A DNA stretch of 64,000 nt from Sphyrna mokarran (Eukaryota), in NCBI GenBank assembly GCA_024679065.1, contig JAGIQG010000009.1, forward strand, positions 86,614,001-86,678,000. Direction: 5' to 3'. The translations under genes and the position numbers were made by a program. Below, piece by piece: positions 33,623-61,458 of this stretch. The notes under the pieces were generated by a model. That model did not search any database, had not been told where the DNA came from, and was given only the letters and a program-made list of their open reading frames with translations. Position 1 is the stretch's first letter, and the number at the start of each line of letters is the position of its first letter.

Positions 33623-34161
33623 ATTCTTTCAGCCAATCTTTCTCAAAATGTGTGTTTTCTATATCAATAATACTCATCAAAAATGTCTATTTCCTTCAAA
33701 TGTAACAGCCTTTGATATTTTGCCTCATATGCTTCACATTTTCCACTCCTCATTCTTTTCCTCTCATTATTTGAACGCTGAAAGAAAATATATTTCCAAT
33801 TCTATTTTGATAAATGGCTTCTCTTTTAATATAATTAGGAAAAGTTTTTCAGATCTTTCTTTCCCTTGTGAACAAAGCTGGTCATCATCATCTATTTCAA
33901 TTCCTATGTTCCTTGTAAATACTGCCAGTTCTTCCAGACTCCTGGATACTCTGACTAGTTATTTCCAGGGCGTTTTCAATGATGATCATAACGTCTTAGT
34001 AAACTCTACATTGTTTCTCCTTCCTTGTAGCTGGTTAAGTGTTCTGTAATATTGTTATCTAGATTACATTTTACTGTATCAAGGTCAGAGACATTATTTG
34101 CAGCATTTGAAGTGTCTGTTTGGAAGGAACTCTTGTTCTTGTTTAGTTGTGGTTTTGTTAC

Positions 34162-34308
34162 CTTCCATTGGGATATGTGAACTTTTTAACCCACTCGGAA
34201 AAGGCTCCAGGGTGAGATGAGGGTCAGATTTGCTCAGATCCAGTTCCACTTTATTATCCATAGCTTCTGGATGATGGTGAGATGGGTTGGTCTCCAAAAA
34301 CAGTTCTG
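34162..34308 (-). CDS. Candidate cytoplasmic exon of the MHC class I-like gene (or an exon of an adjacent NLR-like gene)
   Basis: Acceptor gtgtgtgtttcAG, 147-nt open phase 1-1 frame AELFLETNPSHHHPEAMDNKVELDLSKSDPHLTLEPFPSGLKSSHIPME, donor G|GTAAC. Non-repetitive sequence; no homology recognised. Confidence 0.4.
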
Positions 34309-37874: not shown

Positions 37875-38039
37875 CTGATTCCCCAGATCCAGATTCTCCA
37901 TTCTCTGATTCTTTTTCGCCTGTCTGTGGCCTTTTCCAAATGGCTATTGCAATTATTCCCAATATAGCAGCCAGTATACTGATTACTGATCCAGCTATAA
38001 TTGCAAGTTGTGAGTGCCCACCACTGCTTTCTGGTACTT
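37875..38039 (-). CDS. MHC class I-like heavy chain exon 5 (connecting peptide, transmembrane, start of tail)
   Basis: Acceptor atgtttttcAG, phase 1. EVPESSGGHSQ-LAIIAGSVISILAAILGIIAIAIW-KRPQTGEKESENGESGSGES, then donor G|GTGAGG. Read-through would stop at 37837..37839 (356 aa total). Confidence 0.8.
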
Positions 38040-48540: not shown

Positions 48541-48819
48541 CCCACTGATGGATCTTGGGCTCTGCCAGGCTGCTGTGTTCAATTTGACAGGAATATTGAT
48601 TCTCATCTCCAGCATTAATTTCAATCACTTTCTGGATCTGATGGGTGTCATTGTGGTTCGGTCGAACCCCTGAGGATAGTGTCTCAGACATTACCTCTCC
48701 ATTCCTTAGCCAAGTAACCTCAATGTCTGCAGGATAAAATCCAGTAACCAGGCAGGAGAGAGTGAACAGCTTATATTGACCAATGGGCTCATTTCTCGTG
48801 ATGAAGACATCAGGCTGAA
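48541..48819 (-). CDS. MHC class I-like heavy chain exon 4 (alpha3, Ig C1-set)
   Basis: 279-nt phase 1-1 exon: VQPDVFIT...LSCLVTGFYPADIEVTWLRNG...GVRPNHNDTHQ...YSCQIEHSSL...W. Donor G|GTAAG. Confidence 0.92.
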
Positions 48820-49004: not shown

Positions 49005-49280
49005 CTTTCTTATTGAGATATTCTTTTCCAAAATATAGACGTGATTTTAAACGTTCAACAAGTTCTACTTCCATCAACCATTTCCAAAACGTGTTCCAGG
49101 ATTCATCAAAATCCCATTTCTCCTTAGTCTTCACTGCATTGTGATGTGTTGCGACCCATCTCATTCTGTCTGATTCTAAACTAATATAGTCCTTTCCATC
49201 AAATCCAACACTCATCGATCTCTTAATGGAGCCATCTTCACTGACCTCAACGTTCCTTATCCATTGCAGAACGTGTATTC
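49005..49280 (-). CDS. MHC class I-like heavy chain exon 3 (alpha2 domain, cysteine-free)
   Basis: 276-nt phase 1-1 exon with AG/GT ends. GIHVLQW...EDG...GFDGKDYISL...WVA...AVKTKEKWD...LKSRLYFGKEYL aligns to class I alpha2 motifs. Confidence 0.9.
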
Positions 49281-60585: not shown

Positions 60586-60846
60586 CGGATGTTTGGTTTG
60601 TCCCCTTCATTATTGTCCTCAGATTTTCCTTAGCCATGGCAGACAGTTTATTTCCTTGGTTTGTAAGATATTCCCAGTACTCCCCATCAAAAGAGTCTTC
60701 CATCCACTTCTGCCGGGAGACTGTACGGTGGGTACTACTGTCATAAGCTGTCACTGGCACGCCATTGATCTTACTTACACCAAAATACTCAGGTAACTCA
60801 GCAATGCCAGATGTTGCCACAAACACCGTGGTAATGGAATTACTGT
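60586..60846 (-). CDS. MHC class I-like heavy chain exon 2 (alpha1 domain)
   Basis: Acceptor tgtttttcgtacAG, 261 nt, donor G|GTAAG. DSNSITTVFVATSGIAELPEYFGVSKINGVPVTAYDS...RQKWM...EYWE...NQTSG carries alpha1 motifs (PE, YDS, RQxWM, EYW, N86 glycosylation site NQT). Confidence 0.9.
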
Positions 60847-61174: not shown

Positions 61175-61226
61175 CGGAAGAGATGCAGGAAAAACACAAA
61201 GAGATGTAGAAAAGGACCAGCAACAT
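61175..61226 (-). CDS. MHC class I-like heavy chain exon 1 (signal peptide MLLVLFYISLCFSCISS)
   Basis: ATG at 61226, hydrophobic 17-aa leader plus 1 nt, donor G|GTAAG. TATAAA about 40 nt upstream. Confidence 0.85.
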
Positions 61227-61262
61227 TCTGGAAATCCCTGTTCCAAGGAATAACAACTGCTG

Positions 61263-61458
61263 TTTATAGACCGAAAACGTTGATCAAGACTCCGTTATCA
61301 TCCAACGTGGCGTGTGATCATTTCCTGAATGCAATCCGCAGAGCCGGAATGATTGGTTAGTCCCGAAAAAAAATACCCAATTAAAAGTCTAACTAGTCGT
61401 CTGTCACCAGTTACCAGGGAGATTAAACTCAGTCAGAATGAGATTGAAACAAGAAACT
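61263..61458 (-). promoter_or_regulatory. MHC class I proximal promoter: ISRE, X1/X2, Y box, CCAAT, TATA
   Basis: Sense-strand order: AGTTTCTTGTTTC (61458-61446), CCTGGTAACTGGTGAC (61418-61403), ATTGG (61381-61377), CCAAT (61356-61352), TATAAA (61268-61263), ATG (61226). Confidence 0.75.

What the first reader, a model, noticed from the sequence alone, without database searches (positions are those of the whole stretch)
61263..61458. Classical-type ISRE-X1/X2-Y-CCAAT-TATA promoter driving a nonclassical class I gene
Seen on the sense strand: AGTTTCTTGTTTC, then CCTGGTAACTGGTG, exactly 23 nt, ATTGG, exactly 20 nt, CCAAT, then TATAAA about 40 nt before the ATG. CATTCT sits 16 nt upstream of X1, where an S box is expected. 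TTC(N4)GAA (61241-61250) and GGGATTTCC (61230-61238) lie next to the start codon. Established: mammalian MHC promoters use an SXY module bound by RFX, CREB/ATF and NF-Y with NLRC5 or CIITA, and it is spacing-sensitive. As I recall the HLA promoters, the X-Y and Y-CCAAT spacings here match; this needs checking. Inference: the enhanceosome geometry is conserved in this lineage, and the gene is probably live and interferon-inducible.
Basis: partly seen in the sequence, partly recalled or inferred. Interest (0 to 1): 0.7.

Follow-up and report, generated by a model that had tools for sequence, protein, structure and literature searches.

The report
Conserved MHC promoter module in shark
This intact, transcribed shark immune gene carries the same precisely spaced X-box and Y-box promoter module as the shark's classical MHC gene and a mouse MHC gene, so it is likely switched on by the well-known MHC enhanceosome, although its S box is degraded and the proposed TATA box lies inside the one transcript seen.

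Summary
All listed motifs are at the stated places. The X1/X2-23 nt-Y-20 nt-CCAAT core is real. A matrix trained only on other shark class I lineages ranks it first in the window (0 of 20,000 random promoters reach it). The X-Y gap equals that of this genome's classical UAA-type gene, 9 of 9 UBA-cluster modules and mouse H2-K. So the module is the general shark class I promoter, not a peculiarity of this gene. The gene is an intact six-exon nonclassical class I (likely UEA lineage); one public contig shows it spliced with no differences. That contig reads 39 nt through the 'TATA'. The GAS and NF-kB words are common and absent from 23 paralogous units. CATTCT sits in the S slot but is a degraded S box (AACCT in UAA, most paralogues and H2-K). 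The ISRE has a 3-nt spacer and is missing from paralogues, though it lies where H2-K's does. Interferon induction is untested. It is a known kind of element; my searches found no paper on shark MHC promoters. An earlier scan note saw this family's promoter and leader exon on a neighbouring lineage's gene.

The parts
61446..61458 (-). ISRE-like element, two GAAA half-sites with a 3-nt spacer; begins 40 nt before X1 (H2-K ISRE: 39 nt); not in paralogues
   Evidence: (counted by hand)
61435..61440 (-). S-box slot, degraded: CATTCT where UAA has TAACCT/CAACCT and 8 of 13 X-bearing paralogous units have GAACCT
61403..61418 (-). X1/X2 box (predicted RFX and CREB/ATF sites); first 14 nt are 13 of 14 identical to the distal UAA module
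61377..61381 (-). Y box (inverted CCAAT, predicted NF-Y site), 23 nt after the 14-nt X box
61352..61356 (-). Downstream CCAAT, 20 nt after Y (19 in UAA, 18 in paralogues and most UBA modules; none after the two class II alpha modules)
61227..61307 (-). Transcribed 5' leader (minimum extent; the contig starts at 61307); holds the TATAAA, the GAS-like and kB-like words and a 5-codon upstream ORF at 61301-61284
61263..61268 (-). TATAAA, inside the transcript seen; probably not the main TATA box
61175..61226 (-). Exon 1 coding part (signal peptide)
60586..60846 (-). Exon 2, alpha1 domain (Y7 and R84 anchors lost)
49005..49280 (-). Exon 3, alpha2 domain (both cysteines, Y159 and Y171 lost)
48541..48819 (-). 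Exon 4, alpha3 domain
37875..38039 (-). Exon 5, transmembrane
34097..34308 (-). Exon 6, cytoplasmic tail (open frame to the stop; matches the tail of P0003)

Best explanation
This is the proximal promoter of an intact, transcribed shark nonclassical MHC class I gene (likely UEA lineage), built on the X1/X2-Y-CCAAT module that this genome's classical and other class I genes also carry, and it is likely driven by an RFX, CREB/ATF and NF-Y enhanceosome as in mammals. Shown: the motifs, their spacing, their conservation across lineages, the intact frame and a spliced transcript. Inferred: factor binding, and a start site some tens of bases downstream of the CCAAT (at or above 61307) that does not use the TATAAA. 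The S box is degraded in this copy, so recruitment of NLRC5 is predicted to be weak. Any interferon response would more likely run through the variant ISRE than through the GAS-like word.
For: Matrix from UAA/UBA modules only finds 61418 as the top hit in the window (15.5 bits; the only other hit over 6 bits scores 7.0 and recurs identically in other fetched regions), beyond chance. UAA-type gene (alpha2 best PDB match 6lup, E 4.7e-37) has two modules, each AACCT-16-X-23-ATTGG. 9 of 9 UBA-cluster modules have gap 23. Mouse H2-K primers printed in PMC4374748 give TAACCT-16-X-23-ATTGG and H2-Eb gives GGACCT-16-X-22-ATTGG (counted by hand); the two shark class II alpha modules have gap 22. 13 of 23 paralogous exon-1 units keep a recognisable X with Y, and 10 of those 13 the CCAAT. 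A genome-wide pattern gave 13 hits, 8 in this MHC stretch, against 1 for the reversed control (the pattern was written from the window and UAA, so those two match by design). An NLRC5-type CARD and an RFXAP domain are in the genome. A contig of run X1 joins exon 1 to exon 2 with no differences and runs on into exon 3.
Against: No binding or reporter data. X2 reads TGACAG, not the CRE-type TGACGC of H2-K or the TGACT of UBA and proximal UAA. Of the 13 paralogous units with an X box, 12 have gap 24 and 1 has gap 22, so spacing is not rigid within this family. In a salmon cell line the authors found no RFX5 transcripts and suggested the enhanceosome does not drive interferon-gamma induction there (PMC7573153, passages). 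Expression rests on one contig at 100% identity, plus partial exon-2 contigs in three other runs (1 to 16 differences); contigs cannot fix a start site. The UEA label could not be checked against named sequences.
Confidence: 0.8

Rival explanations
1. One reading: a complete classical-type promoter with working ISRE, S box, TATA, GAS and NF-kB sites, inducible through NLRC5 like HLA-B.
For: All words are present. The ISRE lies at the H2-K position (40 vs 39 nt before X1, by hand), and UAA has an IRF-type word in the same slot. TATAAA is shared by 9 of 13 X-bearing paralogous units. 3-nt-spacer ISREs occur in IRF3-dominant sites (PMC6954429, passage).
Against: The transcript contig covers the TATAAA and 39 nt beyond it. 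GAS, kB and ISRE words are in 0 of 23 paralogous units. The GAS-like word spans a 36-nt gap relative to paralogues. The S slot differs at 3 of 6 letters from the paralogues' GAACCT, and the S region was decisive for NLRC5 in mouse reporters (PMC4374748, passages).
Confidence: 0.12
2. The module is an inherited but decaying relic; the gene's transcription comes from other elements and the boxes no longer matter.
For: Degraded S box and imperfect X2. 10 of 23 paralogous exon-1 units lack a recognisable module (one of them truncated in my extract), and the nearest in-cluster sister gene is broken with a decayed promoter. In run X1 this gene's contig depth (32) is lower than a paralogue's (298), though depth cannot rank genes.
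Against: X1, Y, CCAAT and the 23-nt gap are exact although the whole promoter aligns to paralogues at only about 70-76% identity. The transcript's 5' end lies 45 nt below the CCAAT. The gene is intact and 90% identical to a Mustelus protein.
Confidence: 0.07
3. Chance arrangement of short words.
For: ATTGG, CCAAT and TATAAA are frequent (108, 86 and 31 times on this strand).
Against: 0 of 20,000 and 0 of 100 in random sequence; the same module stands in other class I lineages.
Confidence: 0.01

Closest known systems
Mammalian MHC class I SXY module (mouse H2-K; NLRC5 enhanceosome; PMC4374748, passages and printed primers)
   Same: S slot 16 nt before X1; 14-nt X box (9 of 14 letters identical) then 23 nt to ATTGG; ISRE-like AGTTTC 39-40 nt before X1 (all counted by hand).
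   Different: S box degraded here; X2 is TGACAG rather than TGACGC; ISRE has a 3-nt spacer; no enhancer-A kB site was seen upstream of the ISRE by eye; binding untested.
Teleost classical class I promoters (salmon and trout UBA; PMC1971071, PMC7573153, passages)
   Same: ISRE, W/S, X2/site alpha and Y/enhancer B boxes are already reported in bony-fish class I promoters.
   Different: This is a cartilaginous fish and a nonclassical gene; no sequence-level comparison was possible (their alignment is a figure).
Classical UAA-type and UBA-cluster promoters of the same shark genome (G000:C1548, 85.80 and 95.58-95.84 Mb)
   Same: X-23-Y-(18-20)-CCAAT; X box 13 of 14 identical to the distal UAA module.
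   Different: UAA has two tandem modules with intact AACCT S boxes; this gene has one module with a degraded S slot.
Elasmobranch MHC-Ib UEA lineage (PMC10751288, PMC12562908, passages)
   Same: Multicopy family next to the class II region and a divergent single gene; all 50 named homologues among 51 hits are sharks.
   Different: This copy lies about 4.3 Mb outside the family cluster and about 0.85 Mb from the UAA pair; the lineage name was not confirmed against named sequences.

Membership tests
MHC SXY promoter module | X1 (RFX-type) box upstream of the gene | tested here: met
   15.5 bits with a matrix from other lineages; 9 of 14 and 10 of 14 identity to H2-K and H2-Eb (by hand)
MHC SXY promoter module | X2 box (CRE/AP-1-like) abutting X1 | tested here: inconclusive
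   TGACAG keeps TGAC but is not a full CRE; shared with most X-bearing paralogues
MHC SXY promoter module | Y box at fixed distance from X | tested here: met
   23 nt, equal to H2-K, UAA and UBA by the same X definition
MHC SXY promoter module | S box 16 nt upstream of X | tested here: not met
   Slot is homologous but reads CATTCT; ACCT absent at 13-19 nt. File as an XY module with a degraded S, not a full SXY
MHC SXY promoter module | Module lies upstream of the transcription start | tested here: inconclusive
   Contig 5' end at 61307 is downstream of the module, but contigs cannot show a start
MHC SXY promoter module | Bound by RFX, CREB/ATF, NF-Y and transactivated by NLRC5 or CIITA | not testable with these tools
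   NLRC5-type CARD and RFXAP domains are present in the genome; binding needs experiments
ISRE | GAAANNGAAA consensus (2-nt spacer) | tested here: not met
   3-nt spacer; that variant is reported in IRF3-dominant sites (PMC6954429)
TATA box | Lies about 30 nt upstream of the start site | tested here: not met
   For the one transcript seen, the TATAAA is inside it; additional downstream starts are not excluded
Classical MHC class Ia | Peptide-anchor residues and alpha2 disulfide | tested here: not met
   Against the genome's UAA: Y7, R84, Y159, Y171 and both alpha2 cysteines replaced; Y59, T143, K146, W147 kept (numbering recalled)
Shark UEA lineage | Multicopy, MHC-linked, shark-restricted class Ib family beside UDA | tested here: met
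   16 relatives at 63-74% alpha2 identity (15 full-length, one partial) at 90.98-91.73 Mb; homologues only in sharks (shark restriction recalled)
Shark UEA lineage | Clusters with named UEA sequences in a tree | not testable with these tools
   Defining papers not held; no hit for UEA in the supplement searched

The most novel reading that the evidence does not exclude
The class I (16/23) and class II (22) enhanceosome spacings were fixed to the base before sharks and mammals split, and this displaced nonclassical gene has been rewired: it lost the NLRC5-specifying S box but keeps or regained an ISRE that its cluster paralogues lack, so it would be an NLRC5-independent, directly IRF-induced class Ib gene.
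Probability: 0.25. Interest if true: 0.55.

Novelty: new member of a known kind. Interest (0 to 1): 0.33.

Why it matters
The SXY module is already described as conserved across vertebrates (PMC7281430, passage) and reported in teleosts, so finding it in a shark is expected. What the data add is base-level spacing shared between shark and mouse, and a natural series in one genome: double module in UAA, intact S in most paralogues, degraded S here. That series makes the unsolved S-box/NLRC5 specificity question testable in the oldest lineage with an MHC.

Tried and rejected
TATA, GAS and NF-kB as functional sites: rejected or unsupported. Direct comparison with HLA-A/B/DRA: no tool supplied those promoters, so the Y-CCAAT spacing was compared only within the shark. 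Orthologous promoters in other sharks: no such genomes available, so conservation of the ISRE and of the degraded S box across species is open. No listed sequencing run is on record as RNA; the spliced joint, not the label, shows RNA. The 5' ends of paralogue transcripts were not mapped; loose ends of 91-148 nt hint that they also begin upstream of their TATAAA, but were not aligned. Class II beta family search found nothing and its control was blank too. No module was found for the second UAA-type copy (85.82 Mb) or the 89.63 Mb gene in the stretches fetched, nor for the class II alpha gene at 90.55 Mb. Literature: searches shark+MHC+promoter+Y box+X box (0 papers), MHC class I+promoter+X box+Y box+teleost+conserved (0), SXY/shark/NLRC5 set and nurse shark/promoter/NLRC5/CIITA set gave no paper describing shark MHC promoters; subscription journals, theses and figure-only supplements are not covered.

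Full report
Observation.

The gene. Six exons, all five introns GT-AG. The first five exons read without a stop over 344 codons and the sixth continues to a stop. The protein is 90% identical over 328 residues to a Mustelus asterias protein, P0003. All 50 named homologues among 51 hits are sharks. In a tree of alpha1-alpha2 (the window gene plus 40 of the 51 hits; 11 fused, partial, redundant or unnamed ones left out) it sits in a 12-row clade (99/94) with members from five shark orders. Against the genome's classical-type gene it has lost Y7, R84, Y159, Y171 and both alpha2 cysteines (numbering recalled), so it is nonclassical. The window lies at 86.6 Mb on a contig with a UAA-type pair at 85.8 Mb (alpha2 best match PDB 6lup), class II alpha genes at 90.0-90.5 Mb and 16 close relatives at 90.98-91.73 Mb. 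That arrangement fits the multicopy UEA family described in PMC10751288 (passages), but the defining papers were not held, so UEA is a likely label only.

The core module is real. An X matrix built from 2 UAA-type and 5 UBA-cluster modules, none from this gene's family, scores 61418 at 15.5 bits with ATTGG 23 nt on. It is the best of two hits over 6 bits in the window. Random sequence reached this in 0 of 20,000 500-mers and 0 of 100 64-kb sequences. A pattern search of the 2.77-Gb genome gave 13 hits, 8 of them in this MHC stretch, against 1 for the reversed control; the window and UAA hits match by design, and the five off-MHC hits lack an S box and score 10 bits or less.

It is the general shark class I promoter. 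The UAA-type gene has two tandem modules 103 nt apart, each AACCT-16-X-23-ATTGG, with CCAAT 19 nt after the proximal one. Two class II alpha modules have a 22-nt gap and no following CCAAT. The reporter primers printed in PMC4374748, counted by hand with the same 14-nt X, give 16/23 for mouse H2-K and 16/22 for H2-Eb.

Paralogues separate conserved from private words. Of 23 paralogous exon-1 units caught by one pattern (three more divergent ones are aligned), 13 keep a recognisable X with Y (gap 24 in 12, 22 in 1). Of these 13, 10 keep the CCAAT, 8 have GAACCT at 16 nt, 3 have GATCCT, and 9 have TATAAA. Seven units have no X, and three have no Y in range (one truncated, one displaced by an insertion). 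None of the 23 has the ISRE, the GAS-like or the kB-like word. The GAS-like word spans a 36-nt gap relative to paralogues. GAS-like and TATAAA words each occur in 60 of 426 window tiles.

S box and ISRE. CATTCT occupies the homologous slot but differs at 3 of 6 letters from the family's GAACCT. In mouse reporters the S region decided NLRC5 response (PMC4374748, passages); the swapped fragment there also contained the ISRE, so the mapping to the hexamer is not exact. The ISRE has a 3-nt spacer instead of the consensus 2; such variants are reported in IRF3-dominant sites (PMC6954429, passage). It begins 40 nt before X1 (H2-K 39), and UAA has an IRF-type word in the same slot. That position argues for function; absence from paralogues and a 4% background rate per 300 nt argue for caution.

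Expression and start site. A 496-nt contig from run X1 matches 61307-61175 and 60846-60585 with no differences, skips intron 1 and continues into exon 3. The gene is therefore transcribed in at least one sample. The contig starts 45 nt below the CCAAT and 39 nt above the TATAAA, so that transcript does not start from this TATA. Contigs cannot fix a start, and further downstream starts are not excluded. Three other runs hold partial exon-2 contigs with 1, 9 and 16 differences. The 5' ends of paralogue transcripts remain unmapped.

Mechanism. Inferred from mammals (PMC3987962 and PMC7281430, passages): RFX on X1, CREB/ATF on X2, NF-Y on Y, forming a platform for NLRC5 or CIITA. An NLRC5-type CARD and an RFXAP domain are in this genome, and whale shark has NLRC5 and CIITA (PMC8455134, passage). 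Against over-reading: HLA-G shows that nonclassical promoters can keep box look-alikes without responding, and a salmon study doubts an enhanceosome role in interferon-gamma induction there.

Novelty. The module is textbook, described as conserved across vertebrates and reported in salmonids. Four searches found no paper on shark MHC promoters within the held library. All papers were seen as passages only; for PMC10751288 the supplement was also searched for two terms. Verdict: new member of a known kind, interest 0.33.

Noticed in passing
G000:C1548:85799765 and 85799662 (minus; loci L051, L102): The classical UAA-type promoter has two complete tandem S-X-Y modules 103 nt apart; only the proximal one is followed by CCAAT.
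   Followed up: partly
G000:C1548:90334169 and 90054187 (minus; L083, L085): Class II alpha modules have a 22-nt X-Y gap and no downstream CCAAT, like mouse H2-Eb (22), against 23 in class I.
   Followed up: partly
G000:C1548:91.04-91.06 Mb (L023, L074, L092): The in-cluster sister gene (closest to Mustelus P0010) is broken: changed start codon, disrupted alpha1, two stops in alpha2, decayed promoter. The displaced window gene may be the surviving intact member of this conserved sublineage in this genome.
   Followed up: partly
G000:C1548:91.45-91.67 Mb (L003/L013, L005/L018, L006/L019, L008/L014, L015): Several paralogues have a second leader-exon copy 0.7-1.4 kb upstream whose promoter lacks the X box; some have lost the splice donor.
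   Followed up: partly
G000:C1548:91745402-91754325 (plus; L016, L050, L055): A divergent class I gene with alpha2 cysteines (UDA-like, label not tested) has a promoter and leader exon nearly identical to this family's.
   Followed up: partly
G000:C1548:91395005 (plus; L104): An X-Y-CCAAT module of this family in reverse orientation with no recognisable leader exon after it; it also has a non-AACCT S slot.
   Followed up: partly
window 61301-61284 (minus): Five-codon upstream ORF in the transcribed leader; many paralogues also have short upstream ORFs at a similar place.
   Followed up: no
G000:C1548:93326282 (minus; L059): A UAA-like gene at 93.3 Mb has a weaker X (8.1 bits), gap 24, with CCAAT 19 nt after Y and no ACCT S box.
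   Followed up: no
window 38039-34308: Introns 2, 4 and 5 are long (11.3, 10.5 and 3.6 kb) and hold many retroelement fragments.
   Followed up: no
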